Source: a virus. Taken from it: a stretch of DNA of 64,000 nt. The notes beneath the pieces were generated by a model. The model was given only the letters and a program-made list of their open reading frames with translations, was not told where the DNA came from and did not search any database. The position numbers and the translations under genes are program-made. Where the stretch lies: positions 1 to 64,000 of the IMG/VR virus record IMGVR_UViG_3300031576_000022, one strand, 5' to 3'. Shown here piece after piece: positions 10,567-26,603 of the stretch. Each line of letters opens with the position of its first letter. The stretch's first letter is position 1.

Positions 10567-10964
10567 CGGTGGACCTGCGGGAGAATTGAACTCCCGGTCT
10601 CATGATATTCTGCCTTAAAGCTCTCGTTCACGCTTATAGCACATTCGGTTTGGTGTTTATTTTAAATTTAGCGCCGATAGGCACCGCTAAATTGTTGCTG
10701 CTTTAACGTGCTCATCGGGTTATCGCAGCGACCCGAATCATTTTTCCGTGCTGAATTATGCATTGTTCCGATCGCACGGTTTCGGACAATACATCGCTTG
10801 CTGCGGATTAGGCAGCGACGGCCACAAAAGCGCGAGCGCTTCCGGGGCCAGCGAGCAGATTGTCGTTCTTGGCAATTATTGGTTCTCCGGGTGATTTACG
10901 AGGCCAACCGGAATCCTCGAAGCGCGAGCTTGGGCATTATATCTGATCGATCCCTTTCAGGCCC
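10567..10964 (-). ncRNA. ssrA: tmRNA (one-piece)
   Basis: 5' GGGCCTG pairs with 3' CAGGTCC-A-CCG with G3:U wobble; T-arm GGGAG-TTCAATT-CTCCC; tag ORF 10873-10808 AKNDNLLAGPGSARAFVAVAA-stop. Confidence 0.92.
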
Positions 10965-20364: not shown

Positions 20365-20423
20365 ATCGCAGGTAATCGGTTTGGTAGTGTCCTGATTTGA
20401 GTTTCTGTTTGGCCCGCTATTTG

Positions 20424-21536
20424 CTACTCGTCTGTTTCGGTCGGCTCCGTCTCTTCGATATTGAATTCAACGCGGCTTTGTATGATAATTTCGTCAATAA
20501 CAGTATCCATTTGGTTGAGTTTGCATATATCGTCAAAGATTTCAATTAGCTTAGGAACATTTATTATTTCTTCAATTGAAGACATAAATTTATCGACGAT
20601 TATATCGATATGATATTTTGATATCGCTTCTGTGCGAATCTTATTGCGTATCAGTTCTTCGGTATCTTCACTCTTTATAACAAATGTCAACGGGAATCGA
20701 TTCACCTTATCAATATCTAAAAAGTATTTTTCAGCACTCACGGTTTCTGTGACCTGGAAAAATCTTCCTAGTGGTCGCATAACAAAATCAATGCCACCAT
20801 CGTTCGCGTTTGTTTTTCCAGTCTTATACAATACAAGGCACTCTTGCACAAGATCATCTGATGTATAACCCCAATATATTGTTGTGTTACTATAGTGCTC
20901 TTTCAATATCGTGTAACTAACAATTTCAAATATTCTGGCATCAACGTTTGGTTTGATTTGGTCACGAATAAATTGAACAGCATGTGTACTATTTGTTTTA
21001 CTAATCATTTTTACAGATTCACATAAATCAACAAAATTATTGAATGCTTCTTGTTTAGCAACAATATATCTATTAATTATCTCGATTACTGTGTCACCGA
21101 TGTTTATGTCTTTTTTGTAGCCATTAATTTCAATGCTAATTATTAGTAGTTTCTCATTGATCCAGTATCGTAATGTATCAACATCACGTAAAATTGGCCC
21201 TTCATCACTGGCTTTGAAATATTTTATGAATTCCTCGTTACACCGGCTATTAAGTGCATGATTTTGCAATTTTGAACCGAAAGGTAATTCGCGTTGTCGG
21301 CGAAAAATATCACTGAAACGAGCGCCTTGATATGATTGGTATTGCCCCTTTCGGTCAGAAGTAAATCCATTTCTTATATAATCTTCAACAAGCACATAAA
21401 CAGCGTAATGATTCGCGAACGAACCCCTTGATTTGGCACCACTACTGGCAGATTTTGTTTTTATGTTCAAATACTGTAAAAGTGAACTTCGCTCGAAAAT
21501 AGTCTCCGCATGCTGACCGAAATGCTTGTGAAGCAC
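20424..21536 (-). CDS. probable type II restriction endonuclease; start uncertain
   Basis: Follows the MTase; DARIFEIVSY, TGKTNANDGGIDFV...GRFFQVT (PD-(D/E)xK-like); no in-frame ATG near the 5' end. Confidence 0.7.
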   Translation of the reverse strand: MLHKHFGQHAETIFERSSLLQYLNIKTKSASSGAKSRGSFANHYAVYVLVEDYIRNGFTSDRKGQYQSYQGARFSDIFRRQRELPFGSKLQNHALNSRCNEEFIKYFKASDEGPILRDVDTLRYWINEKLLIISIEINGYKKDINIGDTVIEIINRYIVAKQEAFNNFVDLCESVKMISKTNSTHAVQFIRDQIKPNVDARIFEIVSYTILKEHYSNTTIYWGYTSDDLVQECLVLYKTGKTNANDGGIDFVMRPLGRFFQVTETVSAEKYFLDIDKVNRFPLTFVIKSEDTEELIRNKIRTEAISKYHIDIIVDKFMSSIEEIINVPKLIEIFDDICKLNQMDTVIDEIIIQSRVEFNIEETEPTETDE

Positions 21537-21567
21537 TTCAAAGATAACTGGAGTAAAATCGTGTGTC

Positions 21568-22506
21568 TTATGTCTTATCGGATGAATTCTCTATTGTATT
21601 GTCTGTAGATTTACCAAATAATCGTTGTAAGATATCGTCTTCCGACTCATTTGATGCTACAGAATGGTGATTTTTTCGTATATATGATTTATCAATAGGA
21701 TTTAATATTTCACCATTTAATTCCATTTGAATATCTAATCTACGAAGACCTATTTTGATGTACTCAAGCTCTTGCTCTATACCGATAAATTTGCGTCCAA
21801 GTCTTTTAGCTACAGCACCTGTTGTAAATGTACCGGCGAATGGATCGAGAATTAAGTCTCCAATATTACTACTAGCCAGTATGATTCTATCAAGAAGCGA
21901 TTCTGGTTTTTGCGACGGATGATTTTCATATTCTGGCATTCTATATCTAACACGCGGAAAATACCAGGTATTCCCTGGAACTTTTTTAGTATTATATGGA
22001 GTTGGAGTGGCTTTTCTATAATCAATTAAATTGCGAACTGCTCCAGTTCTTGCTTCTACCATAATATCTTGAGCATTGAATGTATAGTTTGTCTTGTCCA
22101 TTACTAATAAAAGGATCGGCTCGTATAATGATCCAAAATATTTTTTTGCTTGTACGCCAGAACTATCGTAATGCCACACTATTCTTGACAGAACGTCAAT
22201 ACGTTCTCGTACATAACAATCGATCAATGGCATTGCCTGCGTACTTGTCATCAGGTACATACTCGCAGTCGAAGCCATTTTTTTTATGCAAATATCAATC
22301 CAGCGGCAACACCATGAGAAATATTCCGTATCAGACTCCCATTTGTCGTCAAAATCACCGAATTTCTTTCCTATATTGTATGGAGGATCTGCAAATATTA
22401 GGTTGATAGAACCATCAATAACCGATTCGTCAAGAATTTCAAGACTATCTCCGTGTATTATTCGGCATCCATCTTTTTCATATATACTTTTCTTGAAATT
22501 ATTCAT
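21568..22506 (-). CDS. yhdJ: beta-class N6-adenine DNA methyltransferase, YhdJ-like
   Basis: IFADPPYNIGK, IVWHYDSSGVQAKK, KVPGN.W.FPRVRY.M.EYENHPSQKP, LDPFAGTFTTG closely follow E. coli YhdJ as I recall it. Confidence 0.9.
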   Translation of the reverse strand: MNNFKKSIYEKDGCRIIHGDSLEILDESVIDGSINLIFADPPYNIGKKFGDFDDKWESDTEYFSWCCRWIDICIKKMASTASMYLMTSTQAMPLIDCYVRERIDVLSRIVWHYDSSGVQAKKYFGSLYEPILLLVMDKTNYTFNAQDIMVEARTGAVRNLIDYRKATPTPYNTKKVPGNTWYFPRVRYRMPEYENHPSQKPESLLDRIILASSNIGDLILDPFAGTFTTGAVAKRLGRKFIGIEQELEYIKIGLRRLDIQMELNGEILNPIDKSYIRKNHHSVASNESEDDILQRLFGKSTDNTIENSSDKT

Positions 22507-22828
22507 GTTTGTTGTTCTTGGCGTCCGCTGCGATTGACGCACGCACCGCATCGCGAGCGGAGTTTATGGGAGGAAACCCGAGTACGACGACTGCTTCAAG
22601 AGTGCCGTCGTCCCGTTCGCGTTCCCAAGCATAGACGCGCAAAGAAGATGGGCCAATTTCAAAAATTTCGACGACGCCGTCCCACGCAACTTTTCCCTGC
22701 CACAATTCCTTGACATGAATAGGCTTAAGTAGGTTTTTGGCGGTGCTGCCTGCGGCTCTCTCGACCGCGACGAGCAGGCTATCGATTTCATCGATCTTGT
22801 CTGGCAGGCTAGCCACTGTTAGAGTCAC
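22499..22828 (-). CDS. conserved hypothetical IS passenger protein
   Basis: VKELWQGKVAWDGVVEIF...YAW...VL..PPI.S..DAVRASI; stop overlaps the MTase ATG. Confidence 0.65.
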   Translation of the reverse strand: MTLTVASLPDKIDEIDSLLVAVERAAGSTAKNLLKPIHVKELWQGKVAWDGVVEIFEIGPSSLRVYAWERERDDGTLEAVVVLGFPPINSARDAVRASIAADAKNNKHE

Positions 22829-23013
22829 GAATGAGGTTGATGAAGCCGATTTGCCATGGAAAATACGTGAGACGAAACACTAGCAAGCATCGGAAATCGG
22901 TACCATAAATATTTGCAATAGTTTGAGATAAAAAAGATAGCAACAATTGCGTATCGAAAAGTCGGCACAAAACCATTCCATGGATTATGGAGAAAAACAT
23001 GAGGCTAGTGAAG

Positions 23014-23124
23014 GCCCTGACGATTGCAGGTAGTGGACGGATTGTCAGGGCTGTAGAAACACGATGACCGTAGCTGATTCCCTGAGAAGGTCGGCTACGG
23101 CCATCGCCAGTCCACTCTACATGC
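23014..23124 (+). ncRNA. structured RNA (two hairpins plus possible pseudoknot) upstream of the tRNA-like element
   Basis: Stems 23014-24/23041-51 and 23062-79/23089-106; loop 23026-38 complementary to 23110-24. Confidence 0.55.
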
Positions 23125-23146
23125 CAATGAGGTAATCGACGTAATC

Positions 23147-23218
23147 GGGGAGCCAGGTGGCCCGGCGCGGTCGTTTAGAGGCTTAGCGCGAGGGGTTCGA
23201 TTCCCCTGCTCTCCACCA
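23147..23218 (+). tRNA. non-canonical 72-nt tRNA-like RNA (Ala identity elements, TTA at anticodon position)
   Basis: GGGGAGC/GCTCTCC-A-CCA with G3:U; T-arm AGGGG-TTCGATT-CCCCT; minimal D-arm; bulged stem closing loop GTTTAGA. Confidence 0.7.
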
Positions 23219-23520
23219 TTTACGTCAACAACCTCTGACGCACCCAATCTACCAAAACCATGCCTTTGGCACAAGCTTTGTCTTCGATTACCGCAAGCTC
23301 ATCCGGGGTGAGTCGGACTTGAAGACGTTTCGTTTTCCCTTCTCCGGTGGGGAGGCGTGGACGACCGCGTTTTGGCTTCACTTTTTTCTTCATCCTCGAA
23401 TTTTATGGCCTGAATTTTGTGTCGTCCATAAATGGCAGCGGATTTTTTGTCGTCTGAAAATTCTTTTTTGTCGTCCAGGAAAATCCTCGACACCTAGAAT
23501 TTCGGGAGTACAATATTTCC

Positions 23521-24345
23521 ATGGCCAACGTACTCCGGTTCGACGTTCAGGTTGCGGTGGTTACCGCGCTCATCGAAGGGAACAGTACCCGTTCCGTCGA
23601 GCGGATGACCCGTGTTCATCGTGACACGATCACGCGCCTGGGCGTGCGGGTCGGTGAGGCGTGCGCCGCGATGATGGATCGCGAGATGCGCGATCTCGAA
23701 TGCGAACGGATTCAGGTAGACGAAATTTGGGGATTCGTCGCGAAGAAGCAGAAGCACGTTCTTCCCACTGATGATATTTCGCTTGTTGGCGATCAGTGGA
23801 CCTGGGTTGCGATTGACGCCGATACGAAAATTGTTCCATCACATCTTGTCGGAAAACGCGATGGTGCTCATGCTCGTGCCTTTATTTGCGACCTTGCCTC
23901 GCGCCTGAAAAACCGCGTTCAAATTTCATCGGATGCGCTGGCGAGCTACGTTGAAGCAATCGAGGTTGGATTTGGTGGTGACGTCGATTACGGCCAACTA
24001 GTCAAAGTCTACGCAGCTACTACCGAAGGCCCGGCGCGCTATTCCCCACCAAAAATCATGCAGGCGACCAAAAACGTAATCGTCGGGCATCCGAGACACG
24101 AGCACATTTGTACCTCATACGTCGAGCGGCAGAATCTTACGATGCGAATGGCGATGCGTCGGTTGACTCGCCTTACGAATGCCTTCTCAAAGAAGGTCGA
24201 AAACCTTCGTGCAGCGGTCGCGCTTCATTTTGCGTACTACAACTATTGTCGTCGCCATCTCACGTTGAAGACGGCACCAGCTATCGCGGCCGGGCTGACC
24301 GATCGTCGGTGGACGGTTTCCGATCTTCTCGATCTTTCAAATTAG
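23521..24345 (+). CDS. IS1-family DDE transposase, single ORF
   Basis: N-terminal HTH (EGNSTRSVERMTRVHRDTI), QVDEIW, ISSDA, TSYVERQNLTMR..RRLTRLTNAFSKK; stop lies inside the right TIR. Confidence 0.93.
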   Translation: MANVLRFDVQVAVVTALIEGNSTRSVERMTRVHRDTITRLGVRVGEACAAMMDREMRDLECERIQVDEIWGFVAKKQKHVLPTDDISLVGDQWTWVAIDADTKIVPSHLVGKRDGAHARAFICDLASRLKNRVQISSDALASYVEAIEVGFGGDVDYGQLVKVYAATTEGPARYSPPKIMQATKNVIVGHPRHEHICTSYVERQNLTMRMAMRRLTRLTNAFSKKVENLRAAVALHFAYYNYCRRHLTLKTAPAIAAGLTDRRWTVSDLLDLSN

Positions 24346-24485
24346 GACACCACCATCGGTTTGGTTTCGTCATTTGCTGTGATAGATTGTGGTGAGCGGC
24401 AATCCTCATCATCGTCGTAATGCTGTTCAGGGTGGAGAGGCTAGGACCTTTCCCCTACCGGGCCTTCTAAGGTTTACGGACGACG

Positions 24486-26603
24486 ATGATCGCTTTGTTT
24501 ACTCTTTTACGTAGATCGCAGCATGCTGCTGCTGCCGCTGATGATAGCGCGCAGGTTGTTTTGTTTGATCTATACATTGCGCTGCCAACTGAGACACAGG
24601 CTCGTCATGTAACCATGACTGAGAGCCCGTTGGAGGCATCCAGGCTAGTCGGAGAGCTTGGGCAGCCTGTGAGCAAGGATAAGCTCACCATGGCCAGTAA
24701 ACAGCCTGAGATCGTACAGGCTGGCGCTGTGGGAGCGCGCGAACAAGGTCAATCTGTTTCTAGTGACAATACGAATACTCGTATCGAAATGATCGATACT
24801 GGTGAAGTCGAGATTGTTTCTGATGAAAATGATTCAAAAATCTTCAATTTTTCTGGAAAGAAATTAATTGGAAGAATGATGATGACTCGTGATCCAGGGA
24901 CGAGTCGTTTTAATATGACAATTGATAGTAATGGTGGTGATAATAGTATCATTAGTGATAATGGTAATGGTAATGGTAATAATAATAATATTATAGATGA
25001 TAAAAAACCAAAAGAAGATACAAAAAAAGATCCTGAACCTCTTTCTGTTGATGATTTTATTAGTCCTGAATTTGCTGAAGTTATTAATGAATTGATTAAT
25101 CAAAATATACATATATCTGATGACGTAAAAGAACGTCTTACAGCTATTAGCCATCGTCTTTCTGATAAAAAACTTACAAATCGTGATGTTATTTTTGTTC
25201 TTAAATTTATTTCTGGCGGTGAAACCGCTGCATTGAATTCTATTGAATCTACTACAGATACAATTTCTCTTTCTTTATGGGATACATCTGATAAAAAGAA
25301 TGAAATTATATATCTTGACCAAGAAACAGGCGATCAATACAGGCTTGTTCCTTCTGAAAAAAATGATGGAACTTTTACTATTCCTCGTTTTCAGTTTATT
25401 TCAGAAGGTATGTATAATGATGAATTGTTTGATAGTAAAAAGGTTGCTAAAATTATTTCTAATTTTGCTGAATTGTCAAAAACTAAGATTCTTGATGTAC
25501 CAGCAAAGATTGGACATCATAGGTCGCAGTCTTTACTTGGAAATACTGGTGAACTTGCCCATGGATGGGTTAACAATGTTTGGGGTGAAGAAACGGCAAA
25601 TGGAACAAAAGGTTTTCTTTCTCTTGAAGGTATTCCGCAAACCCTTGCATATTTGATTTCTAAAAAAGCATTGAAAAATCGTAGCGCTGAAATCTTTAAA
25701 AATGTCAATTACAATGGAAAGGATTATGGTCCTACCCTTAAGGCGATTTCGTTTCTTGGCGCGTCTACTCCTGCTGTTTTAGGAATGCAACCGGATGCGT
25801 CTGGCGCTGTTGTATTGAATTCGGCCGTGCAAATGTATACGCAGGAAGACGGATCAAAAGTAATCATCGTAAAACCTAACGGGGGTAAGACTGTGAGCGA
25901 TGCCAAGAAGACGATTGAAATTTCCGTTGATGATCTCAACAAACGTATTTCTGATGCAGTTCAGGATGCTATGGAGAGGGCTAAGAAGATTGCTGAAGTT
26001 GATTCTAAGAAGATGAGTGATCAAGTTGTTGAACTTTCTGCAAAACTTAAAAACGAGCAAGATTCTCGTCGTAAGGATTTAGTTAAGTCAAATAAAGCAA
26101 CAAATGAGTCTGAGTTTGATTCTCTTGTAAAGAATGGAAGTATTCTTCCTGTACAGAAGGATGATTTTATTTCTCTTTGCAAGATTATTGATGGTGTGAA
26201 TGATATGGCTATGGGTCGTGATCTTAGCGATATGCTTTCTACTGTCAAATGTGATAAAGATACTCTTGAGTTTTCTGTTGAAACAATGGAAGCTGACAAG
26301 AAGGTTGAGATTAAGGTTCCACTCAAGAATCTTTTTTTTCGGTTTGTTAAGGGGATCAAGCAGATTGATCTTTCTCGTCAGACGAATGATGGGAAAACCT
26401 CTACTAAAAATCCTGTCGATAAGAAGGTGCTTACAAAGAGCGATGAAATTGATGAACTTACCCGTAAGTTGATGAAGGATAGCAACCTTCAATATGCTGA
26501 AGCTTTTATCAAGGCATATGATCTCAAGTTTGTTGGTGATGCAGGAATTGATGCTGCAATTGATGGTGCTACCTCTGTTCCCTCTACTAGCGATTCGGAG
26601 TAA
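24486..26603 (+). CDS. prohead protease/scaffold (Mu gpI-like) with long N-terminal extension
   Basis: PAKIGHH...AHGWV...NRSAEI...GPTLKAISFLG..PAVLGM; coiled-coil C-terminus; upstream of capsid genes; start uncertain. Confidence 0.8.
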   Translation: MIALFTLLRRSQHAAAAADDSAQVVLFDLYIALPTETQARHVTMTESPLEASRLVGELGQPVSKDKLTMASKQPEIVQAGAVGAREQGQSVSSDNTNTRIEMIDTGEVEIVSDENDSKIFNFSGKKLIGRMMMTRDPGTSRFNMTIDSNGGDNSIISDNGNGNGNNNNIIDDKKPKEDTKKDPEPLSVDDFISPEFAEVINELINQNIHISDDVKERLTAISHRLSDKKLTNRDVIFVLKFISGGETAALNSIESTTDTISLSLWDTSDKKNEIIYLDQETGDQYRLVPSEKNDGTFTIPRFQFISEGMYNDELFDSKKVAKIISNFAELSKTKILDVPAKIGHHRSQSLLGNTGELAHGWVNNVWGEETANGTKGFLSLEGIPQTLAYLISKKALKNRSAEIFKNVNYNGKDYGPTLKAISFLGASTPAVLGMQPDASGAVVLNSAVQMYTQEDGSKVIIVKPNGGKTVSDAKKTIEISVDDLNKRISDAVQDAMERAKKIAEVDSKKMSDQVVELSAKLKNEQDSRRKDLVKSNKATNESEFDSLVKNGSILPVQKDDFISLCKIIDGVNDMAMGRDLSDMLSTVKCDKDTLEFSVETMEADKKVEIKVPLKNLFFRFVKGIKQIDLSRQTNDGKTSTKNPVDKKVLTKSDEIDELTRKLMKDSNLQYAEAFIKAYDLKFVGDAGIDAAIDGATSVPSTSDSE

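What the first reader, a model, noticed from the sequence alone, without database searches (positions are those of the whole stretch)
23147..23218. IS-borne non-canonical tRNA-like RNA with alanine identity and an ochre (UUA) loop
Seen: 72 nt with a 7-bp acceptor containing G3:U, discriminator A, encoded CCA and a canonical T-arm, but a minimal D-arm (loop TGGC), a bulged 7-bp anticodon-like stem, loop GTTTAGA and a 2-nt variable region. Knowledge: G3:U70 and A73 specify AlaRS; the compact shape recalls tRNA-Pyl; allo-tRNAs are other odd tRNAs with G3:U70. Inference: an undescribed transposon RNA acting as an ochre suppressor, an anticodon-nuclease decoy, or a processing signal for the transposase transcript 300 nt downstream.
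Basis: partly seen in the sequence, partly recalled or inferred. Interest (0 to 1): 0.75.

Follow-up and report, generated by a model that had tools for sequence, protein, structure and literature searches.

The report
Alanine-type tRNA look-alike in transposon
A jumping gene that landed in a phage genome carries a small, conserved transfer-RNA look-alike that is marked for loading with alanine and has a loop matching a stop codon; many related jumping genes carry similar RNAs, but what they do is still unknown.

Summary
It is not a decayed fragment. It belongs to a large family of compact (about 68-72 nt) tRNA-like genes. A model built only from relatives elsewhere finds it at exactly these coordinates (56.1 bits, E 3.6e-11).

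It lies inside a complete 3,972-bp IS1-family transposon (18-bp terminal repeats, perfect 8-bp target duplication). That transposon sits in a roughly 35% GC phage from a cave metagenome.

Related IS1 elements from several phyla carry the same RNA. It is usually 27-66 nt upstream of the transposase gene, between two converging promoter-like sites.

The acceptor, D and T stems covary. G1-G2-G3:U70 and A73 (the alanine identity set) are invariant. The loop YUUASA (UUA at the anticodon position) is conserved.

Several relatives score best against the tmRNA model with its whole middle deleted. None has a tag frame.

No transposase gene needs read-through, and no expression data exist.

My best reading, about 35-40% likely, is an alanine-charged, weak UAA-reading tRNA held in check by antisense transcription.

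This scan has found the same kind of RNA before on other DNA. My seven literature searches found no description of it.

The parts
20375..20382 (.). left copy of the 8-bp target-site duplication ATCGGTTT
   Evidence: identical to 24355-24362
20383..20400 (+). left terminal inverted repeat of the IS1-family element (GGTAGTGTCCTGATTTGA)
   Evidence: 2 matches in the window against 0.18 expected. The same ends occur in 15 other complete elements.
20424..21536 (-). passenger gene: type II restriction enzyme
   Evidence: PADLOC REase_II, E 2.1e-150
21568..22551 (-). passenger gene: N6/N4 DNA methyltransferase
   Evidence: Pfam PF01555, E 1.1e-51
22499..22828 (-). ORF109: 109-aa protein of an unnamed family that marks this IS1 clade
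   Evidence: No hit in Pfam, NCBIfam, PHROGs, PADLOC or PDB. Homologues occur in 23 RNA-ascertained loci and in 8 of the 8 closest transposase-ascertained loci. Alignment A6.
23014..23124 (+). two hairpins upstream of the tRNA-like RNA (possible leader)
   Evidence: Fold of 22985-23245 has z = -3.21; inverted repeat I11. Hairpins also precede the RNA in L006 and L007.
23129..23144 (+). 5' arm of an inverted repeat that flanks the tRNA-like RNA; its partner is 23220-23235
   Evidence: I13: 16 nt, 81% complementary. L013 has a comparable 14-bp extended acceptor stem.
23147..23218 (+). the compact alanine-type tRNA-like gene, with loop GUUUAGA and encoded CCA
23220..23393 (-). 57-aa ribbon-helix-helix protein (NikA-like). 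Its transcript would run antisense across the tRNA-like gene towards ORF109.
   Evidence: Pfam PF21983, E 3.6e-07. L009 and L095 have the same layout.
23400..23428 (-). promoter-like site for the RHH / antisense transcript
   Evidence: TGGACG-17-TAAAAT, 9 of 12 (consensus match only)
23414..23482 (+). three direct repeats (TTTTGTCGTCC-like), candidate operators
   Evidence: family D1. L009 has three analogous repeats at the same place.
23487..23514 (+). promoter-like site for the transposase gene
   Evidence: TCGACA-16-TACAAT, 10 of 12 (consensus match only)
23521..24345 (+). IS1-family transposase, single ORF of 274 aa
   Evidence: Pfam PF03400, 32.2 bits against a cut-off of 24.1. Nearest relative 67% identical.
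24337..24354 (-). right terminal inverted repeat (GGTGGTGTCCTAATTTGA); contains the tnp stop codon
24355..24362 (.). right copy of the 8-bp target-site duplication ATCGGTTT

Best explanation
What it is (shown, about 0.9): a genuine, selected gene for a compact tRNA-like RNA. It is one member of a large family carried as a conserved accessory gene inside a clade of passenger-carrying IS1-family transposons, and also found in a few other mobile settings.

The RNA has these parts:
- a 7-bp acceptor stem with the full alanine identity set (G1:C72, G2:C71, G3:U70, G4:C69, A73);
- a canonical T arm;
- a small D hairpin with a GG loop, attached directly to the acceptor stem;
- a long, irregular anticodon-type stem capped by a conserved loop Y-U-U-A-S-A.

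How it most likely works (inferred, about 0.35-0.4): it is transcribed on the + strand. In most relatives transcription starts from a sigma-70-type promoter 50-95 nt upstream, and the RNA is the first part of the transposase transcript. RNase P and 3' trimming cut it out, and CCA is either encoded, as here, or added. The host alanyl-tRNA synthetase charges it with alanine through G3:U70. It then acts in trans as a tRNA, reading UAA (and by wobble UAG) with low efficiency and inserting alanine.

Its dose is held down by convergent antisense transcription that starts right at its 3' end. In this copy the antisense transcript would be the RHH-ORF109 passenger operon message.

What the element gains from it (mild read-through, or a poison held in check by its antisense) is not known.
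For: Family and location:
- Among 84 loci fetched through the transposase protein alone, the RNA is present in 5 (L006, L007, L008, L009 with two copies, L013). All 5 are among the 8 closest relatives (57-62% identity), which are also the 8 loci that carry ORF109.
Of these 152 loci, 40 also encode the IS1 transposase.
- In 30 loci the RNA lies 27-66 nt upstream of tnp on the same strand.
- Sixteen elements have 18-bp terminal repeats and perfect 8-bp duplications. Eleven of them enclose the RNA.

Structure:
- On the 43-row alignment A8, 97.1% of cells are paired against 69.9% in shuffles (0 of 500 shuffles reach it). The covariation score is 0.566 against 0.10, and 0.07-0.13 when partners are slid. 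All 4 D-stem pairs change on both sides.

Identity marks:
- G3:U70 and A73 are present in 9 of 9 RNAs that were not picked by my pattern: window, L006, L007, L008, L009a, L009b, L013, L137b, L097a. Meanwhile acceptor pairs 5-7 vary freely.
- ACCA is encoded in 17 of 44.

Loop:
- UUA sits at the anticodon position in 7 of those 9. Tandem partner copies keep the frame xU-NNN-SA but carry UUG (L009a) or CAG (L097a).

Promoters:
- Upstream + strand sites score at least 10 of 12 in 10 of 42 members, against 10 of 840 shuffles (tool check on L206).
- In the short-spacer class, a minus-strand site abutting the 3' end scores at least 9 of 12 in 18 of 30. A + strand site in the same spacer does so in 5 of 30.

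Precedent:
- Mukai et al. 2017 (PMC5389517, section 15 read in full) showed that irregular tRNAs carrying G3:U70, some with a UUA anticodon, are processed, charged and used by E. coli ribosomes after their anticodon was changed to CUA.
Against: - No expression data exist for this or any relative. Only DNA runs hold the window.
- I found no + strand promoter-like site upstream of the window copy.
- ARAGORN labels the window copy a possible pseudogene, and the copy has an A9.G18 mismatch and a bulged stem.
- Position 37 is C in most relatives (G here). By recalled knowledge, functional tRNAs almost always have a purine there.
- The pair closing the 7-nt loop is a standard pair in only 23 of 42, with 13 more being A.C or C.A. 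Many loops may therefore be 9 nt.
- No client for suppression was found. Only 4 of 123 transposase matches contain a stop. Stop codons of the element's own genes show no avoidance of TAA: tnp 7 TAA, 13 TAG, 13 TGA; ORF109 9, 4, 10.
- The RNA is dispensable for the transposon. L010 and L012 are complete elements with duplications but lack it.
- Most family members were found with a pattern that fixed GGGG, TTASA, GGTTCRA..CC and CTCCA. Conservation of those letters in the large set is therefore by construction.
- Promoter calls are consensus matches only.
Confidence: 0.4

Rival explanations
1. Regulatory leader module that decodes nothing. The tRNA shape serves only as an RNase P / 3'-processing site and as a stable folded block inside the region where two converging transcripts overlap (tRNA-like plus tnp on one strand, passenger operon on the other). 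It would uncouple or tune transposase and passenger expression, much as IS10 uses RNA-IN and RNA-OUT.
For: - The RNA sits a fixed 27-66 nt upstream of tnp in 30 loci.
- That spacer is just large enough for, and in 18 of 30 loci contains, a minus-strand promoter-like site whose -10 ends 2-15 nt from the RNA's 3' end.
- A + strand promoter lies 50-95 nt upstream.
- Few members have a + strand promoter for tnp in the spacer: 5 of 30.
- The loop fits the YUNR U-turn motif of antisense recognition loops (recalled).
- Rfam gives sub-threshold mascRNA-type hits, 26-33 bits against a gathering score of 42.5.
Against: - It does not explain why G3:U70, A73 and G1-G2 are invariant while neighbouring pairs vary.
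- It does not explain why CCA is encoded in 17 of 44.
- It does not explain why the loop letters are conserved, since a cis-antisense pair is complementary whatever the sequence.
- Compact relatives also occur away from IS1 transposases, for example beside a P4-type integrase.
- In the window, tnp has its own promoter-like site and an RHH gene lies in between.
Confidence: 0.25
2. A tRNA mimic that acts off the ribosome. It could be a decoy or sponge for a tRNA-targeting nuclease or toxin, a ligand of AlaRS, or an alanine donor or cofactor for one of the unnamed passenger proteins (the ORF109 family or the roughly 270-aa family).
For: - The RNA has a conserved elbow (T loop plus GG in the D loop) and a conserved loop, yet a non-canonical core.
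- ORF109 is present in all 11 complete elements that carry the RNA.
- The passenger proteins belong to no known family.
Against: - ORF109 also occurs in elements that lack the RNA (L010, L011, L012).
- No nuclease or toxin family was recognised among the conserved passengers.
- A decoy would not need the alanine identity set.
Confidence: 0.15
3. A mini-tmRNA: a tmRNA reduced to its tRNA-like domain. It would work with SmpB on stalled ribosomes, or compete with the host tmRNA.
For: - The Rfam tmRNA model (RF00023) is the best hit for 8 of 20 relatives scanned. It matches model positions 1-374 with the middle deleted: L234 at 47.9 bits (gathering score 47), L174 42.3, L148 39.3, L206 37.2, and others 21-31.
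- The 5' part resembles the tmRNA consensus GGGG..G-A-n-UGG-nUUC.
- By recall, tmRNAs consisting only of the tRNA-like domain exist in jakobid mitochondria.
Against: - There is no tag reading frame and there are no pseudoknots; the whole RNA is 72 nt.
- The conserved GAC...GGAC connector of tmRNA is deleted in the alignments.
- The D region forms a covarying hairpin rather than tmRNA's single-stranded loop.
- The distal loop is conserved, which a mere cap on helix 2 would not require.
- The window copy itself does not reach the tmRNA model; its best hit in that clan is tRNA-Sec at 18.3 bits.
Confidence: 0.08
4. This particular copy is an inactive relic: a pseudogene of the family, carried along with the transposon into the phage and no longer expressed.
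For: - ARAGORN flags a 'possible pseudogene'.
- No + strand promoter-like site lies upstream.
- The D stem has an A9.G18 mismatch and the long stem is bulged.
- The transposon's left half has a different base composition, so it has been rearranged.
Against: - Every family-wide feature is intact, including G3:U70, A73, encoded CCA, a perfect T arm and the UUA loop.
- It scores 56.1 bits against a model built without it, which is within the range of the relatives (36-84 bits).
- The element around it is intact, with terminal repeats, a target duplication and an open transposase frame.
Confidence: 0.07

Closest known systems
Allo-tRNAs and 'irregular' tRNAs of soil bacteria (Mukai et al. 2017, NAR 45:2776, PMC5389517; passages and section 15 read)
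   Same: - They are non-canonical tRNA genes found in metagenomes.
- Some carry G3:U70 and some carry a UUA anticodon.
- The authors report them near transposon-related genes and toxin-antitoxin systems.
- Some are active in E. coli translation, and others are thought not to be used for translation.
   Different: - Allo-tRNAs are defined by an 8/4 or 9/3 acceptor/T-stem arrangement. The window RNA is 7/5, because C8 and U61 cannot pair.
- The window RNA has a minimal D hairpin, a variable region of 1-3 nt and a 7-8-bp anticodon-type stem.
- The parts of the paper I read do not describe a fixed position upstream of an IS1 transposase between converging promoters.
tmRNA tRNA-like domain (Rfam RF00023). 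The reduced mitochondrial tmRNAs of jakobids are recalled from memory, not checked here.
   Same: - GGGG start, G3:U70, A73 and a CUCCACCA end.
- The T arm, a UGG-containing segment after the acceptor stem, and a long irregular helix leaving the core.
- Relatives score up to 47.9 bits on the tmRNA model with the middle deleted.
   Different: - No mRNA-like domain and no pseudoknots.
- No GAC/GGAC connector.
- The D region is a covarying hairpin.
- The distal loop is conserved.
Natural and phage-borne suppressor tRNAs
   Same: - The gene is carried on a mobile element.
- The anticodon-position triplet UUA would read UAA.
- ARAGORN calls several relatives tRNA-Stop(tta) even at default settings: L110, L123, L143, L184, L185, L217.
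   Different: - Known suppressors are otherwise canonical tRNAs, and by recall they accompany recoded genes.
- Here the core is reduced and position 37 is mostly C.
- No gene that needs read-through was found.
IS10 RNA-IN / RNA-OUT antisense control (recalled)
   Same: Converging promoters at the start of the transposase transcript would give complementary 5' segments, with a highly structured RNA in the overlap.
   Different: - The predicted overlap does not cover the tnp ribosome-binding site.
- The structured RNA is tRNA-shaped and carries aminoacylation marks.
- The antisense transcript probably doubles as the passenger-operon mRNA.
IS1-family elements with passenger genes. The ISfinder name for the single-ORF group is recalled, not checked.
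   Same: - DDE_Tnp_IS1 domain.
- Terminal repeats starting with GGT.
- 8-bp target duplications.
- Passenger genes between the ends.
   Different: My searches found no report that this family carries an RNA gene or the ORF109 protein.

Membership tests
canonical elongator tRNA (tRNA-Ala or a suppressor tRNA) | 7-bp acceptor stem plus 5-bp T stem, with a T loop of the form UUCRANN | tested here: met
   Sequence, ARAGORN drawing, covariation.
canonical elongator tRNA (tRNA-Ala or a suppressor tRNA) | AlaRS identity set: G3:U70, A73, G2:C71, G4:C69 (the set itself is recalled) | tested here: met
   Present in the window copy. G3:U70 and A73 are present in 9 of 9 RNAs not picked by my pattern. Charging itself was not tested.
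canonical elongator tRNA (tRNA-Ala or a suppressor tRNA) | Two linker nucleotides (8, 9), a 3-4-bp D stem and a D loop of 7 or more nt | tested here: not met
   The D hairpin starts at position 8 and its loop is 4 nt (TGGC).
canonical elongator tRNA (tRNA-Ala or a suppressor tRNA) | 5-bp anticodon stem and a 7-nt loop with U33 and a purine at 37 | tested here: inconclusive
   The window copy has a 7-nt loop G-U-UUA-G-A, so U33 and G37 are acceptable, but it sits on an 8-pair bulged stem. In relatives position 37 is C in 40 of 42, and the closing pair is standard in 23 of 42.
canonical elongator tRNA (tRNA-Ala or a suppressor tRNA) | Recognised by standard tRNA finders | tested here: not met
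   ARAGORN at default settings finds 0 genes in the window. Rfam's best hit is 18.3 bits, to tRNA-Sec. Some relatives do pass: L195 at 41.9 and L188 at 38.7 bits on RF00005.
tmRNA (RF00023) | A tRNA-like domain with G3:U70 and a T arm | tested here: met
tmRNA (RF00023) | An mRNA-like domain with a resume codon and tag frame, plus pseudoknots | tested here: not met
   The RNA is 72 nt in all. About 310-318 model positions are replaced by 14-21 nt in the alignments of relatives.
tmRNA (RF00023) | Rfam gathering score of 47 bits | tested here: not met
   The window copy gets no tmRNA hit. Among 20 relatives scanned, only L234 reaches it, at 47.9 bits.
allo-tRNA (Mukai et al. 2017) | An 8/4 or 9/3 acceptor/T-stem arrangement | tested here: not met
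   The window copy is 7/5; C8 and U61 cannot pair. L008 could be drawn as 8/4.
IS1-family transposon (the carrier) | An IS1-type DDE transposase | tested here: met
   PF03400, 32.2 bits against a cut-off of 24.1. More than 8000 relatives, those that carry a source's name being named IS1 family transposase.
IS1-family transposon (the carrier) | Terminal inverted repeats and an 8-9-bp target duplication that enclose the RNA gene | tested here: met
the IS1-borne compact alanine-type tRNA-like family (defined here) | Match to a covariance model built only from members elsewhere | tested here: met
   R3: 56.1 bits, E 3.6e-11, full length 1-72.

The most novel reading that the evidence does not exclude
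A clade of IS1 transposons, and some phages and integrative elements, deliberately carries alanine-charged tRNAs with the 'wrong' anticodon. Most have UUA; tandem partner copies have UUG or CAG. Each is paired with an antisense promoter that fires across the gene. Together the two would form an RNA-only poison-and-antidote or dosage switch, through which the mobile element alters host decoding (stop-codon read-through or alanine misincorporation) to secure its own retention or to respond to stress.
Probability: 0.15. Interest if true: 0.85.

Novelty: new variant of a known kind. Interest (0 to 1): 0.62.

Why it matters
Insertion sequences are usually thought to carry little beyond a transposase. 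RNA partners are known for only a few families, such as IS10, IS200/IS605 and IS110.

Here a clade of IS1 elements found in several bacterial phyla and in phages carries a covarying tRNA-shaped gene. It keeps the exact marks that make alanyl-tRNA synthetase charge an RNA, plus a loop that matches the commonest stop codon, and it sits between two converging promoters.

If the RNA is charged and used on the ribosome, mobile elements would be spreading stop-codon readers or mistranslating tRNAs through microbial communities. If it is not, this is a new kind of tRNA-mimic regulator of transposition.

Either way it gives a concrete, small and testable system. It would also explain 'tRNA-Stop', short 'tmRNA' and pseudo-tRNA calls that annotation pipelines scatter next to IS1 transposases.

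Tried and rejected
1. My first guess at the IS ends (about 23.41-24.49 kb, from a 12-nt inverted match) was wrong. The true ends are 20383 and 24354.

2. Exact or near-exact copies elsewhere:
- The 27-nt 3' half gave 0 hits in genome contigs and in viral contigs.
- A pattern with the window's own acceptor stem gave 0 hits in viral contigs.
- A pattern requiring the window's D-loop and loop letters gave 0 hits in metagenome contigs.
- blastn of 22450-24800 found only short transposase matches in 2 plasmids and nothing in phages.

3. Relatives of the RHH protein, ORF109 and the phage protease-like protein in viral contigs through the search for related loci: none. No 'empty site' phage was found.

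4. The four viral transposase relatives (48-50% identity) lack the RNA.

5. Read-through clients:
- In-frame stops occur in only 4 of 123 transposase matches.
- The element's genes show no avoidance of TAA.
- No consistent leader ORF ends at the RNA (read by eye).

6. The passenger proteins gave nothing in Pfam, NCBIfam, PADLOC or a PDB profile search. The protein atlas gave only unnamed clusters.

7. Expression: no RNA holder is listed. Only two DNA runs of one cave-metagenome sample, probably the source of this DNA, hold the stretch. One 72.6-kb contig spans the whole element with no alternative joint. That sample is the likely source, so this is not independent support.

8. The five host genomes hold only their IS-borne compact copy or copies (two in tandem in G002). 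The weaker model hits are 75-77 nt long and are probably ordinary tRNA-Ala genes, which I did not inspect.

9. Idea that TTTACA is a -35 box of a tnp promoter, with its -10 in the T loop: weighed by eye only and rejected, because the matching hexamers lack the A at position 2 of the -10 (no call). One search tested something else, + strand sites whose -10 lies in the spacer after the RNA; these score at least 9 of 12 in 5 of 30.

10. MAFFT alignments of the RNAs misplace the 5' ends. I did not use them for counting.

11. The anticodon-arm columns of A8 are not in register between sequences. I therefore counted that arm only in my own loop-anchored script.

12. Literature searches found no description of an IS1-linked tRNA-like RNA. 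For all papers other than PMC5389517 (passages plus section 15) and PMC7609411 (passages), I saw only the search listing.
Full report
THE OBSERVATION

The window is the first 64 kb of an 86,248-bp IMG/VR virus record. It is a phage of about 35% GC with a portal gene, a head-protease-like gene and a major head gene, and it has its own tmRNA at 10567-10964 (-).

- a 7-bp acceptor stem GGGGAGC/GCTCTCC with G3:U70, discriminator A and encoded CCA;
- a T arm AGGGG-TTCGATT-CCCCT;
- a tiny D hairpin with loop TGGC;
- a long bulged stem and the loop GTTTAGA.

ARAGORN at default settings and Rfam at gathering score miss it. ARAGORN at its relaxed -ps setting calls tRNA-Stop(tta) at exactly these coordinates and flags a 'possible pseudogene'. 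Rfam's best weak hit is tRNA-Sec at 18.3 bits. Relaxed ARAGORN hits are rare in random sequence of the same make-up: 1 in 2.56 Mb and 3 in 0.91 Mb.

THE CARRIER

The RNA lies in a stretch of about 52% GC (about 22.5-24.77 kb).
- GGTAGTGTCCTGATTTGA at 20383-20400 (+) and GGTGGTGTCCTAATTTGA at 24337-24354 (-) are the only two matches in the window, against 0.18 expected.
- ATCGGTTT flanks them on both sides.

The element is therefore 3,972 bp. It holds, in order:
- a type II restriction enzyme and a methyltransferase;
- a 109-aa protein of no known family (ORF109);
- the tRNA-like gene;
- a 57-aa NikA-like RHH gene on the other strand;
- three direct repeats;
- a single-ORF IS1-family transposase.

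One Logan contig of 72.6 kb from the probable source sample spans all of it, with no alternative joint.

RELATIVES FOUND THROUGH THE TRANSPOSASE

This ascertainment does not depend on the RNA. The transposase has thousands of relatives; the nearest is 67% identical. I fetched 4 viral loci and 80 genome loci through the protein.

A home-made stem finder and relaxed ARAGORN turned up look-alikes next to the transposase gene in L006 (Syntrophales MAG), L007 (Dehalococcoidia MAG), L009 and L013 (Planctomycetota MAG). Covariance models R1 and R2 added L008 and a second, tandem copy in L009, and found nothing else among the 84 loci except ordinary tRNAs and a tmRNA end.

All 5 positive loci are among the 8 closest transposase relatives (57-62% identity). 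Exactly those 8 loci also carry an ORF109 homologue; none of L014-L085 does. The RNA is thus an accessory of one IS1 clade, and it is not obligatory. L010 and L012 are complete elements with target duplications but without it.

RELATIVES FOUND THROUGH THE RNA

Of the 152 elements:
- about 33 are ordinary tRNA-Val(TAC) and a few are tRNA-Ala;
- 74 are compact, have 7 of 7 acceptor pairs and are not called by default ARAGORN;
- six are called tRNA-Stop(tta) even at default settings.

Forty of the 152 loci encode the IS1 transposase and 23 encode ORF109. In 30 loci the RNA lies 27-66 nt upstream of the tnp start on the same strand. Other spacings are 121-127 nt and 268-361 nt; the window's is 302 nt. 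In the window, L009 and L095 the longer spacing holds an opposite-strand RHH gene.

Sixteen elements have the 18-bp ends and perfect 8-bp duplications, and 11 of them enclose the RNA. Of 56 compact elements with at least 1 kb of downstream sequence, only 22 have the transposase. One recurrent other setting (8 loci) includes a P4-type integrase. The family therefore extends beyond IS1.

STRUCTURE AND CONSERVED LETTERS

On the 43-row model-guided alignment A8, the acceptor, D and T helices are paired in 97.1% of cells, against 69.9% in shuffles (0 of 500 shuffles reach it). The covariation score is 0.566 against 0.10, and 0.07-0.13 when partners are slid. Acceptor pairs 5-7, T-stem pairs 1-3 and all four D-stem pairs change on both sides.

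Three caveats apply. The alignment is fitted to the structure. Thirty-six rows were found with a pattern that fixes pairs 1-4 and two T-stem pairs. I had also kept only rows with 7 of 7 acceptor pairs.

In the nine RNAs that the pattern did not pick (window, L006, L007, L008, L009a, L009b, L013, L137b, L097a):
- G3:U70 and A73 are present in 9 of 9;
- the triplet at the anticodon position is UUA in 7, UUG in L009a and CAG in L097a, within a constant frame x-U-NNN-S-A.

In 42 IS1-linked sequences the 7-mer loops are CUUUACA (15), GUUUACA (11), CCUUACA (5), AUUUACA (5) and five rarer forms, which include the window's GUUUAGA. The two G-C pairs just below the loop are nearly invariant. The closing pair is a standard pair in 23 of 42, and A.C or C.A in 13 more. 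ACCA is encoded in 17 of 44.

A model built without the window sequence finds the window element at full length: 56.1 bits, E 3.6e-11.

KINSHIP

Eight of 20 relatives scanned hit Rfam's tmRNA model end to end with its middle deleted. L234 reaches 47.9 bits, just above the gathering score of 47. Two relatives hit the tRNA model above its gathering score, and several give sub-threshold mascRNA hits.

The 5' part resembles the tmRNA consensus, but the tmRNA GAC/GGAC connector, the pseudoknots and the tag frame are all absent. The D region is a covarying hairpin. In five host genomes the family model's weaker hits are 75-77 nt long and are probably tRNA-Ala.

I read the family as a tRNA-type RNA of tmRNA or tRNA-Ala ancestry, not as a tmRNA.

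TRANSCRIPTION SIGNALS (CONSENSUS MATCHES ONLY)

Upstream of the RNA on its own strand, sigma-70-like sites scoring at least 10 of 12 occur in 10 of 42 members, against 10 of 840 shuffles. The -10 box ends 51-121 nt before the RNA, and within 51-91 nt in nine of the ten. The scan tool confirms TTGACA-17-TAGACT in L206.

I tested that claim. In the short-spacer class, a minus-strand site whose -10 ends 2-15 nt from the RNA's 3' end scores at least 9 of 12 in 18 of 30. A + strand site in the same spacer does so in 5 of 30.

The roughly 40-nt spacer between the RNA and tnp is thus mostly an antisense promoter. In those elements tnp is probably transcribed together with the RNA, while the opposing transcript, probably the passenger-operon mRNA, starts at the RNA's 3' end.

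The window copy shows the same logic in another form. The RHH gene's promoter-like site (23428-23400) would send a transcript through the RHH gene, across the antisense of the RNA, and on to ORF109. The tnp gene has its own promoter-like site. I found no + strand promoter-like site for the window RNA itself.

WHAT IT DOES

Shown:
- It is a selected RNA gene.
- It is mobile with IS1 elements.
- It has a tRNA-type fold.
- Its alanine identity marks and its loop are conserved while the stems diverge.

Inferred: processing, charging by AlaRS, and action in trans.

The simplest activity for such an RNA is decoding UAA with alanine. Irregular tRNAs with G3:U70 have been shown to work in E. coli (PMC5389517, section 15).

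Against a strong suppressor:
- no gene in these elements needs read-through;
- position 37 is mostly C;
- many loops may be 9 nt;
- the RNA is dispensable for the transposon.

I therefore put a weak, antisense-restrained alanine suppressor at about 0.35-0.4. The rivals are a purely regulatory leader/antisense module (0.25), an off-ribosome mimic or cofactor (0.15), a mini-tmRNA (0.08) and a dead copy (0.07).

NOVELTY

Seven full-text searches found no description of an IS1-linked tRNA-like RNA. The nearest published work is Mukai et al. 2017 on allo- and irregular tRNAs. Its defining 8/4 or 9/3 arrangement is not met here. I could not open its supplements.

This scan has reported the same kind of RNA before on other DNA (e1-2113495, e1-3963184, e1-2376552, e1-2074447, e1-5822077, e1-6022160). 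Those are unchecked AI notes and not independent evidence. I did not verify that their sequences belong to my family.

TOOLS THAT WERE CLOSED

The look-up of encoding contigs and structure prediction.

Noticed in passing
window 10567-10964 (-): The phage encodes a full-length tmRNA (Rfam RF00023, 100.6 bits). CCA is not encoded, and the acceptor and T arm differ from those of the IS-borne RNA.
   Followed up: partly
window 20424-22551 (-): A type II restriction enzyme and an N6/N4 methyltransferase ride inside the same IS1 element. Their 35-38% GC resembles the phage, whereas the right half of the element is about 52% GC. The element therefore looks composite.
   Followed up: partly
window 24355-24770: The 51-57% GC stretch continues about 400 bp beyond the right end and target duplication of the IS. 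It forms an N-terminal extension of the 705-aa head-protease-like ORF (24486-26603). I cannot explain why phage DNA outside the element has this composition.
   Followed up: no
window 22499-22828 (-); alignment A6: ORF109 belongs to an unnamed family of roughly 100-aa proteins with invariant W, G, YAW and AVL motifs. The family marks this IS1 clade: it is present in 8 of the 8 closest loci, whether or not they carry the RNA. Its position varies: downstream of a roughly 270-aa protein in some loci and directly after tnp in others.
   Followed up: partly
L172:4009-4800(-), L137:1730-2551(-), L206:1578-2432(-), L007:3912-4727(-): A second conserved passenger, a roughly 270-aa protein with an N-terminal RSPxYPxIxL motif, has no hit in Pfam, NCBIfam, PADLOC or PDB. 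In 8 loci a DUF5343-type protein of about 240 aa takes its place.
   Followed up: partly
L009:4540-4690, L097:3860-4024, L137:2763-2914: Some elements carry two tRNA-like genes in tandem. Both copies have G3:U70 and A73, but their loops differ: UUG and UUA in L009, CAG and UUA in L097, and in L137 UUA in both, followed by G in one and C in the other.
   Followed up: partly
L078:4755-4830 and L082:1022-1097 (Bradyrhizobium): A different odd tRNA-like sequence lies about 170 nt upstream of more distant IS1-family transposase genes in two genomes. It has a CCCCACG acceptor stem, a normal D arm, a weak anticodon stem and an ACC end.
   Followed up: no
L003:4026-4099: A low-GC phage with an IS1-type transposase gene has, about 200 nt downstream of that gene, a tRNA that ARAGORN cannot type. 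Its loop CTTTAAC would put TTA at the anticodon position.
   Followed up: no
L174:1079-1242: A canonical tRNA (Rfam tRNA, 60.9 bits) follows the compact tRNA-like gene after 6 nt, upstream of the transposase gene.
   Followed up: no
L013:5001-5060: The transposase frame of this Planctomycetota element has an in-frame TGA at codon 16, aligned with Ala16 of the window protein. It is one of only 4 of 123 matches that contain a stop, so it is probably a pseudogene.
   Followed up: partly
L111:1152-2954 and 7 related loci (L105, L161, L175, L178, L221, L236, L239): Compact relatives of the RNA, mostly with UUUAGA loops, occur in high-GC DNA without an IS1 transposase. In L111 the RNA lies next to a P4-type integrase. 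They may be integration sites or cargo of another kind of mobile element.
   Followed up: partly
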